NCBI GenBank assembly: GCA_964016885.1 | Contig: CAXHJY010000907.1 | Span: 1 to 64,000 of the forward strand | DNA: 64,000 nucleotides | From: Eledone cirrhosa | Taxonomy: Eukaryota | Direction: 5' to 3' | Shown here: positions 7,428 through 62,970 of the stretch, one piece after another | How positions within the stretch are numbered: the first letter of the stretch is position 1 | Layout: each line of letters begins with the position of its first letter | Program-made: the position numbers and the translations under genes | Notes under the pieces: model-generated | What the model was told of the DNA's origin: nothing | The model's input: the letters and a program-made list of their open reading frames with translations, nothing else | Database searches by the model: none

Positions 7428-7897
7428 TTAATAATGAAAATATTGTGTACAGTGCTCAGGTGCACTACAACTCATCAAAAGTGTATGTATAGTACATAGG
7501 GTAATGTACAAACGTCAGGAAAATGTAGTTTTGGCGAATTTCGGGAACCATGAGGGTTTTAAAGAATGCAGTGTCTCGGCAGCTAACAACTGACGCAGGT
7601 AGTTTGTTCCATGCTTCAGCAACAAATGTTTCAGAAAGTCATGGGAGCTGTGCTCTTTTCTGACTTTGTAGGCATGTCCACGTGTGTTAGACACATGGAG
7701 ATCAAAAAGGTGCTCAGGGTTGTTGTTGGCGAGATGGTTAATAACTTTGTGGGTGTTTACCAAGTCCATTGCCAGACGTTGGAGCTTCAATGAATCCATG
7801 CCCAGAGAAGCAAGGCATTCAGAGTATGGAAGGTGTCTGATGGAGAGTATGCTTGGTTGCACGTCTCTGAACAGTTTTGAGGAGGGCAATGTTAATG
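7428..7897 (-). mobile_element. CR1-clade LINE 3' end
   Basis: Seen: LPYSECLASLGMDSLKLQRLAMDL...NTRGHAYKV, typical of CR1 ORF2 C-termini, followed by a short 3' UTR. Confidence 0.85.
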
Positions 7898-9308
7898 GAC
7901 ATGTTGTATATCATAAAATTAGAGGTACACTTGGGAAGCTTAGTATCAAAAGGGGTTAAAAAACATGACCATATAGACATATGCTCTTTTCCATATCAGT
8001 CTATTTTACTAACATAGAAAATTGAATGTGAAACTGATGGTGGTGGTGATAGTTTTAGAAGGTTGATGATGGTAGTGATGATGCACGACTTGAAAAAGAC
8101 TTATCTCCAGGAAGATAAGAAGTACATATATTCTTGTGGTGATTTAAATTATGAAGTAAGAAGAAACAAAACTTAGATCAGTATTTAACCTTTCTGATAC
8201 CACACTGACTCAAATTGACCCTGGGTCTACAATACAAAATTGTTTTAAAGTGTTTATCTATATATATAAAGGGAAGATGGACATTGTTTAGTGTACCGAA
8301 CTTGCCTGCTACACCGTTCATCCAATTTTCATGAAACCTCACACATATATAAAACTCAACACGTAGAGTGGAATAGGCTACTTGAAATTTTCGAAAAATC
8401 GATAATCGGGCGCTATGACAGAATGTTTTGCGATTCCAATGAAATTTTATGTGAATTCGAACACAAGAACTCTTAGTTTACATCTGGCGCAATAAAAATA
8501 AATTTCACGTGCGTTATTGATTGGACGGCCAGCTGCATGTCTTCCCAGCTGTCTCAGTAAACGACCGACCATTAAAGAGTTTCTTTTCATATTCCACCCT
8601 ATTCAAGTGGAAATACAGTATTATCCCTATCTGAAAAGGGAACCAAATTTAATGGTGTCTTTTGTGAACCTAAAAGCTGTGAGTAAATTTTCAAACAGTC
8701 TTAAATAATCATGCTTTTTGAAAAAAAAATTACTAAATAATACGTTGACCAAGTTGTGTTGTACACATACAATACAAGTAAAAAAATTTACGTTGTACCA
8801 ATGTTTTCCTTTTTTAAACAAAAGATTCTAAAAAATTACTTAATTTATAATAGTCTTTTGCACAGCAAGTGAGTAACTTTTCGGGTGTTTAAACGTAAGT
8901 TCACCAGGGTTTGTGTCTTCATTATTAGCCCACCTCTAATGGCATTTTTTGTTCTGCTTACGACTAAATGTTATGAGCGTATTTGCAATTAATTGCGCAC
9001 ACGTGCACACCTGCATGCAGATAGACACTGACAGCCAATAAAAAATCGATAACTTGCTTATTAAGATATCGGTCAAAAAGAGAGATTGAATGTACTTTAG
9101 AACATTTTTTGAATATATTGTTCTTTTTGGCATGATATGTCAGAAATATAGCTACTATACACTTTGGTTATTTTTTGTAACTAAAAAACGGTTCCTTTTG
9201 GGTGGATACTTAACGAGAAAAATCCTAGGGTTTTGGACAAGTTTGTTTCAGGCGCTGTATAGACGCCTATTTTGTCACACCTTGGTCATGAATTCGTATT
9301 CTTTTCCA

Positions 9309-9567
9309 ATAGATATTTTCCGCTCTATAAGGCTCACCAGGATATAAGGCGTATCATTTAAAATCAGGTCCGCGCAACGGCGTGTAAGGCCAACCAGAAA
9401 ATGCTATCTTCTTTACTTTTAGTCTAGATCTATTACTTCTGTTAGAGCCGTGATTGATTACCATTGTATTATTTATACATAAGGCTCACCGGAGTATAAA
9501 GCGCAGAGCTGTTTTTTGATTAAATTTAATTATTTTAAGTGCAATTTATAGACGGGAAAATTCGGTA
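9309..9567. mobile_element. Tc1/pogo-like MITE nested in the Helitron
   Basis: Seen: imperfect TIRs atagatattttccgctctataa / ttatagacgggaaaattcggta and a repeated internal ataaggctcacc motif. Confidence 0.55.
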
Positions 9568-9669
9568 AGTTATTGTAATCATATTTCCAAACCTTCCCAT
9601 TCACCAGTAACCATGCTAACGAATCTGGTGTCATCTCTCTCTAACCTAACAGCTTCGTTACACGTCGTT

Positions 9670-10228
9670 ATGCCCACACGGAAACGTTCAAGACTTACCT
9701 CCAAAAAAGGTACAGCTATTGCTTTGAGACAACGAATTAGGCGTTCTCAGGTATCAGTTCATTCACAATTGATTAATCCTTTATGCAATATTCTCCCTTA
9801 ATGTTAGCAAGTACTGCGTTTATCCTGACTGTCACCTCTTTTAAGCAACTACAACATTCTAATCGTAGTTATATTAAATTTATTGTCTTACCTTGATTCC
9901 CTTTTGTTCATGTTAGACTTTTCTCATTTACTATTGACACTGCCATTGGCTTAGCTAACCAGTAGAATTAATTAATTTTCTCTAGGAAACACCTGCTGAG
10001 CGTGAATCTCGACTCGCTGATAGACGTCTTTCCCGGCTGGTTGAGTCACCAACATCACGTACGACAAGGCTTGCTAATGTTCGCCTTCGTCGCCAACAAG
10101 CGGTGACGGAGGAATCACCAAGATCCCGTCAGACGAGGCTTGAGGCTGTGGCAAAGGGCAATAACCCTAGATACAATTTTGATCAACTTCTTTTCACCTA
10201 TAGCAAATTTACCGGGACAGGTTTTTAG
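9670..10228 (+). CDS. Spliced Helitron mini-ORF (exons 9670-9750 and 9986-10228), N-terminus of RepHel-type protein with STPR-like repeats, 107 aa
   Basis: Seen: MPTRKRSRLTSKKGTAIALRQRIRRSQ|ETPAERESRLADRRLSRLVESPTSRTTRLANVRLRRQQAVTEESPRSRQTRL...; donor CAG|GTATCA at 9751, branch-like GCTAAC at about 9954-9959, acceptor ttttctctAG at 9985, phase 0. No Rep or Pif1 helicase motifs remain. Confidence 0.7.
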
Positions 10229-11452
10229 CTACTCAAATCTACTTCAGAGATCACGCATTGATGTAAAAAATCAATAAAATTGAAGCGGGGCCCCGACTTT
10301 GCGCAAAAAAACAAGGCAAAGTTACACATGGGAAAACTTTTTACAGGAACGTCCTATATTCTTGAAAACTGTCACAAAAGACTCGCCATTATGCCGCGGT
10401 TAAGATAAAGGCCCTTTTAATTCTTCTTCTGCACATGTGAGCGCAAAAATTGTAAAAAAAAAAAACCCTGAAAGTAATCGACATTTTCACCCTGCTTTAA
10501 ATTCAATATCAAGCGATTTTGACTTCCATCAGTCGTGCAGAGAACAATTTCAACGATACACTGTGTAACTACAATTAATAAATTACACACCTGTGTCTAC
10601 TAACCTATTTTTTCCCACTGAAGTTCGAAGTTTTGAACCTGTGATGCGCGGGAAGTAACTTTCACACATTCTAACAGACCAAAGGTCGACTTACACCCGG
10701 GCACTTCTGCTAGTATTTATATAAAAACCTATCATAATTTTAAGTAGTAACCTTCATTAAGTTATGTTCTAAAGAGCTGCTTAATGACAAAGTTAGTTAC
10801 GTTACTCAACCCTCCAAATTCCTGATTCTTGAAAACTATAGACAGTGTCATTCATTAGAAATATGGTAAGAGGGGGTCATAAGATCTGTTTTAACACTTG
10901 GGTATAGAATGCTGACTTAAGGCGAAAGATGCTGGGGATATTTAGGAAAAATAAGGTAAATGAAGCATATGTGTATGCTTGTTTTATCACCATGGTCACA
11001 TGTAAGAGCGTGCTGCAGATTCTTTTCTTTATTTAACTTCTTGCAATTGGAATTGATGTTTACATATAGATGATGGGAGTCTTGTCACTAAGAGTAAGAG
11101 CCTACCATGTACAAATAAAGAATAATGTGCTTAGAACATGGACTTGAAAAGCAAATACAGTGAAAGGCTTTTTTTTCTGGACATAACTGAAGGAGGCAGC
11201 AAACTTCATTGTTAATAGGGTGTGGGCATGGAGGAGGGAGACCAAGGATTCTTACAGCTGCTGATATATAGTGAGGTAGATGATAATTCAAACAACTGTT
11301 ATAATAATCTCTAGATTACAAAAACTCATAACAGTTAAGGTAAATATAAAGATATATTAACCCTCTTGTGTTACTATATGTTTAATGAAAGACACTGCAC
11401 TTTAAAAATAATCAAGAATTTTGGGGGATTTAGTAGCATAGCTTTCTTCTCA

Positions 11453-30557: not shown

Positions 30558-32929
30558 CATCATCATCACCGTTTTACGTCTGTTCTTCCATGCTAGCATG
30601 GGTTAGACGAGTTGTCCTGTTGTGGGCAGTGTCTGGTCGGCTGACCATGCCTTGCTCATACAGGAACTGATTTTGGCTTGATTTCTACAGCTGGATGCCC
30701 TTCCTAACACGAACCTCATTTACAGTGAGTGCTGGGGGCTTTTTTCTGTGGCGCCTACACGACCACTTTGCAGTGGGAGGGTGTGGGGGCATATTGTCTA
30801 TATGCTTCAGCTTGTACCCATGGAAGGTCGGGTACTCTGTATTACTGCGTGACGCCAGAGGTCACGGTCGTGTGTCATCGCCTTTGAGAGGTGTAATTGG
30901 GTAAGGTCGGCTTTTATCACCTCATTCCAGGTCTTCTTGGGTCTCCTCACTCCACGGTTTCCATTGACTTCTAGTGCTCTGTACCTTTTTATGCAGCTGT
31001 CATCCTTCATACGCATCACATGTCCATACCAACGCAACCGCCTCTCCTGCACACAGCATTTGATTCCTCTTATGCTCAGTCTCTCTCTCAACTCATTTAT
31101 GCTTTGTCGGTCGCGTATATTACTATTACACATCCATCGGAGCATGCAGGCTTCGTTTCTCTCTAATCTACATAAGTCTTCCACCTTCAGCGCCCAGGTC
31201 TCACTACCATGTAACATTGCTGTTCGTATACACGCATCATACAGTCTGCCTTTCATTTTGAGGGAAAAGCCTTTTGCAGCTAGCAGTGGTAGTAGTTCCC
31301 TGAACTTCTTCCATCCCGTTCTTACATAGTTATTGTACTTTCTGAACACCGACCTCTGATGCTAATTCGGTCACCTAGGTAGCAGAAGCTGTCTACTGTT
31401 TCTACAGAGCCCTCCCAGAGATTGGTGGTACTTGTTTCCTGTGGCTGTTTGCTGCTTGCTGTCCCAGCACAGCTGCTACATGTGAAGCCTACATTCTTAA
31501 TTAAGCTTCCTGAGATCCCGCTACATCTCTTGTGTACCCATTGTTTGCATCTGGGGCAGAGAATGGAGTTCCTACCTACACCTTTCCTACATACTGAGCA
31601 AGGCCATTTCCCTGAAGGGATCTGGGTTCTGTTTTCTCATCTACTTACAAGGACCTTAGTCTTTGTCATGTTGACTTTGAGACCCTTTCTTTCTAGTCCC
31701 TGCTTCCAAGTTTGGAATTTCTTCTCTAGTTCTACCATAGATTCAGCTATAAGTGCGAGGTCATCAGCATACAGGAGTTCCCATGGGCATCCAGTCTTAA
31801 ACTCCTCCGTTATTGCCTACAGGACTATGATGAACAGGAGAGGGCTAAGAACAGAGCCCTGGTGGACACCAACCTGTACGCTAAATTCCTCACTATACTC
31901 ATTGCTAATCCTAACTTTGCTGACTGCTTCCCTATACATGGCTTGTACAGCTTTCACAAGCCATTCATATACTCCTAGTTTTCTAAGAGCCCACCAGATT
32001 ATAGCACGTGGAACTCTGTCAAAGGCTTTCTCGAGATCGACGAATGCCAGGTAGAGTGACTTACTTTTAGCTAGGTACTTTTCCTGTAACTGCCTTACAA
32101 AGAAGAGGGTATCAGTGGTGCCTCTTCCTGGTACAAACCCAAATTGCATCTCATCTAGTTTCACCCGGTCCCTAATCAACTGTGCTATAACTCTTTCTGT
32201 TACTTTCATGACCTGGTCCATCAGCTTTATACCTCTATAGTTTCCGCTATCTAGTTCATCACCTTTACCTTTGTAGGAACTCCCAGTACTCTTCTACATT
32301 GAATGTCTCTATCTGTCGTAGGCGTTGAGTAAAATATCTTTAAATCTGTTACTGGCTAAGGGGTCTTTCAGCTTCCAGATCTTTCTTCTCCAGGTTGGCC
32401 TGTTTCCAGGTTCGTCTAGTTCTGACCGTGAGGTCGCTGACAACTAAGCTATGTTGGGAGGTACATTCCTCACTAGGGAAGGCTTTTGTGTTTGCGACCG
32501 TCCATCTGTCACGTCCTCTAATGAGGATAAAATCTATGACTAGAATGCTCCCCTGATCTATAGGTGATCAGTTGGTTGTCGGGTTTTTTGAAGTTTGTGT
32601 TACATATCGACATGTCATTGGCGTCGCAGAATTCTAGCAGTCTGAATCCTTCTTCATTTCTTGTGCCAACCCCATGGCCTCCATGGACTCTATTGAAGCC
32701 GTCACAGTGTTTACCTACGTGTCAGTTAAAATCTCCTGCGATGATGAGGAAGTCATTGTCGTTTGTTAGAACAGTAGTGTGCATTAGGGACTCGTAAAAC
32801 CTATCCTTAAGTTCGTCTGGCAACACCGATTGGGGTGCGTAAGCTGATATTATTGTGGTAATTGTTTTATTCAGGACTAGTCTGTGTTTAATGATTCTTG
32901 CATTTACCCTGTACACTGAGATTACTTTA
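30558..32929 (-). mobile_element. RTE-clade LINE, 5'-truncated and internally deleted (partial APE endonuclease, RT, 3' UTR, (ATG)n tail)
   Basis: Seen: SAYAPQ/IAGDFN endonuclease motifs (32722-32916), NYRGIKL, QFGF, AFVDLEKAFDRV, GVHQGSVLSPLLF, YADD (31760-31771), LHGSETW, RLRWYGHV. Stops, frameshifts and a deletion near 32275. 3' UTR at 30558-30830. Confidence 0.95.
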
Positions 32930-46164: not shown

Positions 46165-46295
46165 CACTATGTTGCCAGAGCCCTCCGCAAAATGCAGACA
46201 CACTCAGGTAAAATCCAATTTAAGAGATTATTTCTTGATATTGAAGGTTTATTAAGTCTAAATTTAAATAACATAGGCCCACATTTTGACTGCTG
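46165..46295 (-). other. Candidate cassette/non-coding exon inside the long intron
   Basis: Seen: acceptor ccttattttctgtttctttCAG followed by CAGCAG, donor GTG|GTAAGT; 131 nt; frame 0 open for 42 codons then TAG; other frames close earlier. Confidence 0.4.
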
Positions 46296-46344
46296 CTGAA
46301 AGAAACAGAAAATAAGGAAGGTAAAATATAGCTTATAGGAAAAT

Positions 46345-46610
46345 GTACATACATCTTACAATTTATATGAAAATATAGATACATCTTACAATTTATATGA
46401 AAATATACATACATCTTACAATTTATATGAAAATATACATACATCTTACAATTTATATGAAAATATACATACATCTTATAGTTTATATGAAAATACACAT
46501 ACATTTTACAGTTTATATGAAAATATACATTCATCCTACAGTTTATATGAAAATATTCTATATATATTACAGTTTATATGAAAATATTCATACGTACATA
46601 TAGTATATAT
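46345..46610. repeat. 30-bp minisatellite (aaatatacatacatcttacaatttatatga), about 8-9 units
   Basis: Seen directly. Confidence 0.95.
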
Positions 46611-62244: not shown

Positions 62245-62289
62245 CGTCAAAGCACCAGTAGGCATTATGAAATGCATCCTGCTCAACAT
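62245..62289 (-). CDS. First coding exon of host gene (MLSRMHFIMPTGALT); full exon 62245-62299
   Basis: Seen: minus-strand acceptor ttctcctccttttccAG before 62299, donor ACG|GTGAGT after 62245, in-frame TAA immediately before ATG 62289, further in-frame ATGs at 62277 and 62265, phase 0. Inference: MPTGALT plus the next exon matches my recollection of a conserved invertebrate family starting MPTGAxTxCYV (possibly DUF7153); not verified by search. Confidence 0.75.
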
Positions 62290-62469
62290 TTATAGCTCTC
62301 TGGAAAAGGAGGAGAAAAGTGAGATGAATCATTTGAAAGGCAGCTGTGTTTCAGTTGACTGAGCAGACAGTAACACACACACACAAGCAGGGATGGCGGT
62401 GAGCAGGCAGAGTGAAAGAACTATAGTAACAGTACTGCTAATGATGATGATGGTGGTTTAGAGGAGTTG

Positions 62470-62810
62470 GTAAACCAACCGCCTGCTAGCTTGCTTGCCT
62501 TGCTCTGCCTGCTTCTGTATGTGTGAGTGTGTGTAGTGTCTATATCTTTGCTTGGTTTGGTCCGCCTGCTTCTGTTTGTGTGTAATGTCTATGTGTAAAT
62601 CTGTATGTGTCTTTGCTTGGCTTGGTCTGACTGCTTCTGTCTGTGTGTATGTCTGTACATGAGCGTAGTGTCTATGTGTAAATTTCTGTGTGTCTTTACT
62701 TGGCTTGGTATATAAGTGTGTAGTGCCTGTGTCTGCCTGCTTCTGTATTTGTGTGTGTGTCTTTACTTGGCTTGGCGTGTATGTCTGTGTCTTTGCTTGC
62801 CAGTCTGCTT
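62470..62810. repeat. Degenerate tandem repeat (gcttggcttgg...ctgcctgcttctgt...gtgtgt) next to the start exon
   Basis: Seen: about 5 diverged units of roughly 60-80 bp. Confidence 0.7.
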
Positions 62811-62970
62811 GTTGGACCACCTCTGGGCAGGGAGTGTAGAACACAGAATGAAAACGACACACGTACACAGTGAAATGGAGAAGAAGGCTTGACAACTAAT
62901 AATCTTAGCATTCAGCTAAAAAAGAAATTCTGGACACACACACACACGTATATTATATATAAACACATAC

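What the first reader, a model, noticed from the sequence alone, without database searches (positions are those of the whole stretch)
8257..10713. Non-autonomous Helitron retaining an intact, spliced STPR-repeat mini-gene
Seen: clean Helitron ends and a two-exon ORF (9670-9750, 235-nt GT-AG intron with CTAAC branch-like site, 9986-10228) encoding 107 aa. It has a basic N-terminus (RKRSR..KK) and three E[ST]PxxRxxRL repeats spaced 19 and 23 aa. The two exons are in different genomic frames, so only splicing joins them, and the ORF track misses this. CCAAT boxes and an ATCGATA motif lie upstream (about 8520 and 9035-9052). Known: STPR repeats (23 aa, silkworm FMBP-1) bind AT-rich DNA and similar repeats occur at Helitron RepHel N-termini. 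Inference: a Rep/helicase-less derivative could still express a small nuclear DNA-binding peptide (possible trans-regulator of Helitrons or co-option substrate), antisense to the host gene.
Basis: partly seen in the sequence, partly recalled or inferred. Interest (0 to 1): 0.72.

Follow-up and report, generated by a model that had tools for sequence, protein, structure and literature searches.

The report
Helitron deletion derivative keeping transposase start
This is one of about 250 copies of a rolling-circle transposon (Helitron) that lost 5.7 kb of its middle; its apparent mini-gene is the first 79 codons of the parent's transposase gene run into non-coding DNA, it is broken in half of the copies examined, and it is likely a leftover rather than a working gene.

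Summary
The element and the spliced 107-aa frame are real, but the 'mini-gene' is the stump of the transposase (RepHel) gene. I found the 8.2-kb autonomous parent (13 places). The majority of 11 parent copies gives a 1507-aa RepHel through the same exon 1 and 235-nt intron. A 5.7-kb deletion at a TTG microhomology (10140-10142) cuts it after codon 79; the last 28 residues come from DNA 1.4 kb past the parent's stop. 250 places carry this junction. Only 29 of 58 copies keep the frame, and changes accumulate neutrally (dN/dS about 1.4, 10 stops). The intron is supported by comparison: a 27-codon first exon recurs in distant RepHel families. No RNA run was available. Only one STPR-like repeat is complete, and Pfam STPRs scores below cut-off. 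The window copy has lost its 3' hairpin and has a changed +5 donor base. No host gene was found. A repressor like the P-element's KP protein is not excluded (about 7%). The scan earlier noted Helitron STPR repeats on other DNA (e1-8825714). Ordinary; low interest.

The parts
8257..10713 (+). Non-autonomous Helitron (HLE1 type), one of about 250 copies of a single internal-deletion family
   Evidence: 96% to the parent majority over both segments
8257..9669 (+). 5' terminus (TC) and upstream non-coding region inherited whole from the parent; likely holds the RepHel promoter (inferred, start site unknown). Private deletions of 16 nt (8506) and 20 nt (9634)
9035..9051 (+). CCAAT and ATCGATA motifs. 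ATCGATA is kept in 8 of 8 parent and 6 of 7 sister-family copies printed; CCAAT in 7 of 8 parent and 0 of 7 sister copies
9670..9750 (+). RepHel exon 1: 27 codons, basic leader (likely nuclear localisation signal, inferred)
   Evidence: the same 27-codon exon in distant RepHel families
9751..9985 (+). RepHel intron 1, phase 0, 235 nt, GT-AG; donor +5 base (9755) is C here, G in siblings
   Evidence: splicing not seen in RNA
9986..10141 (+). Start of RepHel exon 2, residues 28-79: a 19-aa repeat, one full 23-aa STPR-like repeat, and the first 10 residues of a third
10140..10142 (+). Deletion junction: TTG microhomology joining parent position about 1959 to about 7651 (5.7 kb lost: rest of the repeats, zinc finger, Rep, helicase)
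10142..10228 (+). 28 read-through codons and stop, from parent DNA 1404 nt beyond the RepHel stop; the frame is closed upstream in the parent
10273..10278 (+). AATAAA 45 nt after the stop, a possible poly(A) signal (untested)
10696..10713 (+). 3' terminus CTAG with the hairpin collapsed by a 10-nt deletion between two CCGGG
8185..8256 (.). Left half of a dispersed host repeat split by the insertion
10714..10863 (.). Right half of the same host repeat

Best explanation
The element is a non-autonomous Helitron made by one 5.7-kb internal deletion of an 8.2-kb autonomous Helitron, and its 107-aa frame is 79 residues of the parent's transposase start plus 28 residues of non-coding read-through, likely a functionless leftover. 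Shown: parent, junction, copy number, neutral decay of the frame. Inferred: the deletion arose once by microhomology joining; parent transposase acting in trans on the retained ends then copied the short element in a star-like burst (copies about 0.9% from their majority). Copies with an intact promoter and donor may still make the spliced RNA and peptide as a by-product (untested). The window copy, without its hairpin, would terminate transposition poorly and is likely a dead end.
For: Parent: 11 copies share the element's 5' 1.9 kb, and 9 of them also its 3' segment within the stretch fetched. Their majority gives a 1507-aa frame through the same exons. Single copies match Pfam Helitron_like_N (E 1.8e-58) and PIF1 (E 4.2e-57) and Helraiser 7lcc (E 8e-109). 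Family majority is 98.3% identical to parent majority on both sides of the junction. Counts: 250 junction places against 13 parent-interior places. Frame intact in 16 of 30 and 13 of 28 copies. Substitutions N/S/stop 67/16/6 against 59.2/20.5/3.6 expected from the element's own non-coding rates (dN/dS 1.45, p=0.21); second sample 47/12/4 (1.36, p=0.38; 5 of 28 copies skipped as partial). Exon indels 34 per kb, upstream DNA 38.7 per kb. 534 singleton variants against 100 shared in 55 of 58 copies. Control: a sister derivative with no exon match in 18 of 18 loci examined also reached about 200 places, so spread needs no peptide.
Against: Neutral decay per copy is also expected if 250 redundant copies made a trans-acting peptide, so it does not exclude function during the burst. 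The whole upstream region, a splice-competent intron in most copies, a last-exon stop and a nearby AATAAA survive, so expression is plausible. Half the copies are still intact. Founder against parent shows only 2 codon changes (both missense), too few to test selection. The first sample was picked by likeness to the window copy and the second by an exact junction match.
Confidence: 0.85

Rival explanations
1. KP-like trans-regulator: the spliced N-terminal stump is made from many copies, enters the nucleus, binds Helitron DNA or full-length RepHel and damps transposition.
For: Same anatomy as the KP element of Drosophila (199 transposase residues plus 8 others; binds P elements and represses; PMC4938643, passages). 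The derivative outnumbers the parent about 19 to 1. A second sister family also keeps exon 1, intron, repeats and zinc finger. Repeats keep E1, T/S2, R6, R9, L10 of STPR.
Against: Only one complete 23-aa unit; FMBP-1 binding was shown with three or four (PMC4856987, passages). The zinc finger is lost; in Helraiser DNA binding maps to the N-terminal 489 aa as a whole (PMC4778049, passages). Pfam STPRs 13.8 bits against cut-off 27. No constraint on the frame.
Confidence: 0.07
2. The family acts as a mobile promoter and exon trap: promoter, ATG, exon 1 and donor splice into downstream host exons, as HelibatN3 does in bats.
For: All 5' parts are retained; HelibatN3 precedent (PMC4778049, passages).
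Against: The element has its own acceptor 235 nt downstream. In this window no host exon was found and the donor +5 base is changed.
Confidence: 0.06
3. This particular copy has been co-opted by the host as a small DNA-binding protein gene.
For: Its frame is open; STPR domains occur in host genes across animals (PMC4856987, passages).
Against: It differs from the family majority by 4 missense and 1 silent change, a changed donor base and a 20-nt deletion 35 nt before the ATG. At 0.8% divergence an open frame is the common state.
Confidence: 0.02

Closest known systems
Non-autonomous HLE1 Helitrons (deletion derivatives)
   Same: TC and CTAG ends, 3' hairpin (in siblings), A|T target, no Rep or helicase, ends shared with an autonomous partner, length near the Repbase mean of about 2 kb (PMC11417382, passages).
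   Different: Keeps the first exon, intron and part of exon 2 of RepHel; the window copy lacks the hairpin.
Helraiser (bat Helibat1, PDB 7lcc)
   Same: The parent RepHel aligns from the N-terminal repeats through Rep (E 8e-109); 1507 aa against 1496 aa.
   Different: The parent's leader is on a separate exon; the window element keeps only 79 residues.
KP element of the Drosophila P family
   Same: Internal deletion leaving the transposase N-terminus plus a short foreign tail; outnumbers the full element (KP abundance partly recalled; structure from PMC4938643).
   Different: KP keeps 199 residues and has shown binding and repression; here 79 residues, zinc finger lost, no function shown, different transposon class.
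STPR domain (FMBP-1, ZNF821; Pfam PF21107)
   Same: E1, T/S2, R6, R9, L10 in three repeat starts; the only PDB match for exon 2 is FMBP-1, at E=4. STPRs are a known HLE1 domain (PMC11417382, passages).
   Different: One 23-aa unit only; Y16 and R20 absent; below Pfam cut-off.

Membership tests
Non-autonomous HLE1 Helitron | 5' TC and 3' CTRR termini | tested here: met
   CTAG then T in 27 of 29 siblings, A|TC at the printed position in 18 of 29, most others in TA runs
Non-autonomous HLE1 Helitron | Insertion between A and T, no target duplication | tested here: met
   12 host-repeat paralogues align across the joined flanks; empty-site joints in DNA contigs
Non-autonomous HLE1 Helitron | Subterminal 3' hairpin | tested here: met
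   Met for the family (213 exact 40-nt ends; 28 of 29 siblings keep the stretch); secondarily lost in the window copy
Non-autonomous HLE1 Helitron | Dispersed copies sharing ends with an autonomous RepHel element; no Rep or helicase of its own | tested here: met
STPR domain (PF21107) | Score above Pfam cut-off (27 bits) | tested here: not met
   Exon 2: 13.8 bits, E 0.079; parent copies 19.4 and 24.2 bits. The joined 107-aa peptide was not scanned
STPR domain (PF21107) | Three or more tandem 23-residue repeats | tested here: not met
   Units of 19, 23 and 10 (cut) residues
STPR domain (PF21107) | Conserved E1, T/S2, R9 in each repeat | tested here: met
   3 of 3 repeat starts
STPR domain (PF21107) | Binding to AT-rich DNA | not testable with these tools
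   needs a binding assay
KP-like truncated-transposase repressor | Deletion leaves a translatable transposase N-terminus | tested here: met
KP-like truncated-transposase repressor | Complete DNA-binding region retained | tested here: not met
   Zinc finger and part of the repeats deleted
KP-like truncated-transposase repressor | Expressed and represses transposition | not testable with these tools
   No RNA holder listed

The most novel reading that the evidence does not exclude
A Helitron counterpart of the KP element: deletion derivatives that keep promoter, exon 1, intron and STPR-like repeats flood the germ line with a truncated RepHel that occupies Helitron ends and shuts the family down. 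This would fit 250 derivatives against 13 parents, none of the 11 fetched with an unbroken frame.
Probability: 0.07. Interest if true: 0.65.

Novelty: new member of a known kind. Interest (0 to 1): 0.2.

Why it matters
As it stands, little: it is an ordinary deletion derivative. It is useful for annotation. It fixes a family with its parent and shows that several RepHel families in this genome start with a 27-codon exon and a phase-0 intron, which ORF-only annotation misses. If the KP-like reading were true, it would be a protein-based self-regulation of Helitrons; searches listed no paper on that (listings and abstract starts only).

Tried and rejected
RNA: no RNA holder listed. Four contig sets of unknown kind (one study) were laid: no 9750-9986 joint, and one 1421-nt contig holds the intron. 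Run X1 covers repeats deeply and unique DNA hardly at all, so it looks like low-coverage DNA. None of this counts for or against expression. Parent search by Pfam PF14214 and 10 long-frame loci: no DNA match to the element; these are other Helitron families. Host gene: Pfam on 147 and 150 minus-strand frames and two splice-signal scans found none. The weak hits (Asp at 62461-62895 on a low-complexity frame, PHYHIP_C, VKGC, Reticulon) are below cut-off and were rejected. Plus-strand frames were not scanned. AT skew is positive in 29 of 32 bins, which would fit an intron of a minus-strand gene, but this is inference only. Splice-site retention across copies is not more than expected at 1% divergence (3 acceptor changes in 58 copies). 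Shared frameshift in L004, L180, L205 lies in a T run and is not backed by other shared variants for all three. Look-ups of earlier findings by place and by sequence were empty. No structure prediction was run. PMC13282606 (passages) lists recently active Helitrons in an octopus but says nothing on this family; the host species was not established here. No supplements were read; Repbase and Dfam could not be searched, so the family may already be catalogued.

Full report
Observation. The element runs from A|TC at 8257 to CTAG|T at 10713, and the two exons join to a 107-aa frame with repeats at residues 28, 47 and 70. It sits inside a dispersed host repeat: 12 paralogues align across the joined flanks with no duplication, and DNA contigs show matching empty sites. 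The window copy is slightly damaged. It lacks 10 nt of the 3' hairpin that 28 of 29 siblings keep, has C at donor position +5, and has deletions of 16, 20 and 11 nt. In Helraiser the hairpin is the transposition terminator, and its deletion cut transposition to 8.8% (PMC4778049, passages).

Family. A DNA search of the genome gave 961 candidates, of which 40 were scored; 35 of 42 matches were near full length at 93-100%. The deletion junction occurs at 250 places with up to 2 mismatches, and the reversed control at 0. Thirty copies lie on average 0.9% from their majority. Variants are mostly private (534 singletons, 78 shared by two, 22 by three or more; 55 of 58 copies). That pattern indicates a recent burst from one or a few templates (inferred).

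Parent. Loose ends and back-joints in DNA contigs pointed to a seam near 10140. Patterns taken from them found two sister derivative families. One shares only the termini and the 3' 570 nt (220 places, which would include the parents; no exon match upstream of the 3' segment in 18 of 18 loci). The other keeps exon 1, intron, a longer repeat array and the zinc finger. A search with that zinc-finger region led to 11 copies of an 8.2-kb element. None of the 11 has an unbroken frame, but their majority gives a 1507-aa protein through the same 81-nt exon and 235-nt intron. Single copies match Helitron_like_N, PIF1 and Pif1_2B above cut-off and STPRs below it, and Helraiser at E 8e-109. Ten of the 11 lie 1.2-2.1% from their majority and one 13.75%. 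A parent-interior marker occurs at 13 places.

What the mini-gene is. Family majority and parent majority are 98.3% identical over parent positions 25-1959 and 7651-8247, joined at a TTG microhomology. Residues 1-79 are RepHel. Residues 80-107 are read from DNA 1404 nt past the parent's stop, where the frame is closed upstream. With the local stop frequency a run of 28 open codons has a chance of about 0.20. An 'intact' frame from ATG to stop is therefore the automatic result of the deletion.

Is the intron real? No RNA could be tested. Comparison supports it. The parent's long frame begins just after a stop and has no Met before the repeats, so it needs the upstream exon. Among 20 loci of distant RepHel families (40-57% identity over the stretches matched), 15 have an MP-K/R leader with GT right after codon 27. 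Six of those 15 also show a T-rich AG directly before the first ET repeat, at intron lengths of 93-129 nt. Two more loci have a shortened leader and three gave no leader. Other RepHel families carry a similar leader fused in frame to the repeats.

Selection. The frame is intact in 16 of 30 copies and in 13 of 28 further copies, two duplicate loci dropped. Distinct substitutions were N 67, S 16, stop 6 against 59.2, 20.5 and 3.6 expected from the element's non-coding rates (dN/dS 1.45, p=0.21). The second sample gave 47, 12 and 4 (1.36, p=0.38; 5 partial copies skipped). Indels are as frequent in exons as upstream (34 against 38.7 per kb). The intron had the fewest substitutions (0.5%), possibly from low CpG content, which I did not test. 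Founder and parent differ at 2 of 79 codons, both missense. Caveat: redundancy over 250 copies would hide selection on a trans-acting product.

Could the peptide work? The repeat starts keep E1, T/S2, R6, R9 and L10 but not Y16 or R20. In FMBP-1 repeats are strictly 23 residues and three suffice for binding (PMC4856987, passages). Here the units are 19, 23 and a cut 10. Exon 2 scores 13.8 bits on PF21107 against a cut-off of 27 and E=4 to FMBP-1 in the PDB. STPRs are a reported HLE1 domain (PMC11417382, passages). The zinc finger is gone, and Helraiser needs its N-terminal 489 aa to bind DNA. The closest functional precedent is the KP element (PMC4938643, passages). Paper searches for a Helitron equivalent listed none (listings only).

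Promoter and host. CCAAT is at chance level and is not kept in the sister family; ATCGATA is kept in 14 of 15 related copies printed and may belong to the parent's promoter (inferred). No host gene was found on the minus strand, so 'antisense' is unconfirmed.

Verdict. An ordinary young non-autonomous Helitron whose mini-gene is a transposase stump (confidence 0.85). New member of a known kind; interest 0.2. The boldest reading not excluded is a KP-like repressor (0.07).

Noticed in passing
G000 loci L159-L178; window 9670-9985: Several RepHel families at 40-57% identity share a 27-codon first exon and a phase-0 intron of differing length (93, about 128, 235 nt) before the STPR-like repeats; other families in the genome are intronless there.
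   Followed up: partly
L107, L108, L149-L152, L154-L158: A sister deletion family keeps exon 1, intron, up to about 8 repeats and the zinc finger, with exon-2 frames up to 324 aa. It is a better KP-like candidate than the window's family; selection and copy number were not tested.
   Followed up: partly
L087, L089-L104, L106: Another non-autonomous family, mostly 2-3.5 kb where the 5' end was found, with the same termini and a GC-richer interior; about 200 places.
   Followed up: partly
G000:C2:315526157-315531310 (L046-L047): A 1718-aa open RepHel frame with 11 STPR matches (174 bits) and no intron, possibly an intact autonomous Helitron of another family.
   Followed up: partly
G000:C20:3.5-5.2 Mb; also C27, C19, C16: At least 14 near-equal Helitron_like_N matches on C20, all on the minus strand, about 80-210 kb apart, most with the same 362-aa frame; looks like a large tandem segmental array.
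   Followed up: no
window 30807-32293 (-): Broken retroelement with a PHD finger (E 7e-08) and reverse transcriptase (E 2e-20).
   Followed up: no
window 9326-9352 and 9478-9505: A duplicated TATAAGGCTCACC-type motif in the Helitron's upstream region; from memory it resembles the end of a pogo/Tc2-like DNA transposon (recalled, not tested).
   Followed up: no
window 46273-46586: Tandem array of about eight 30-nt units.
   Followed up: no
window 62245-62299 (-): Short exon-like stretch with a GTGAGT donor and an open frame; no homology test was run.
   Followed up: no
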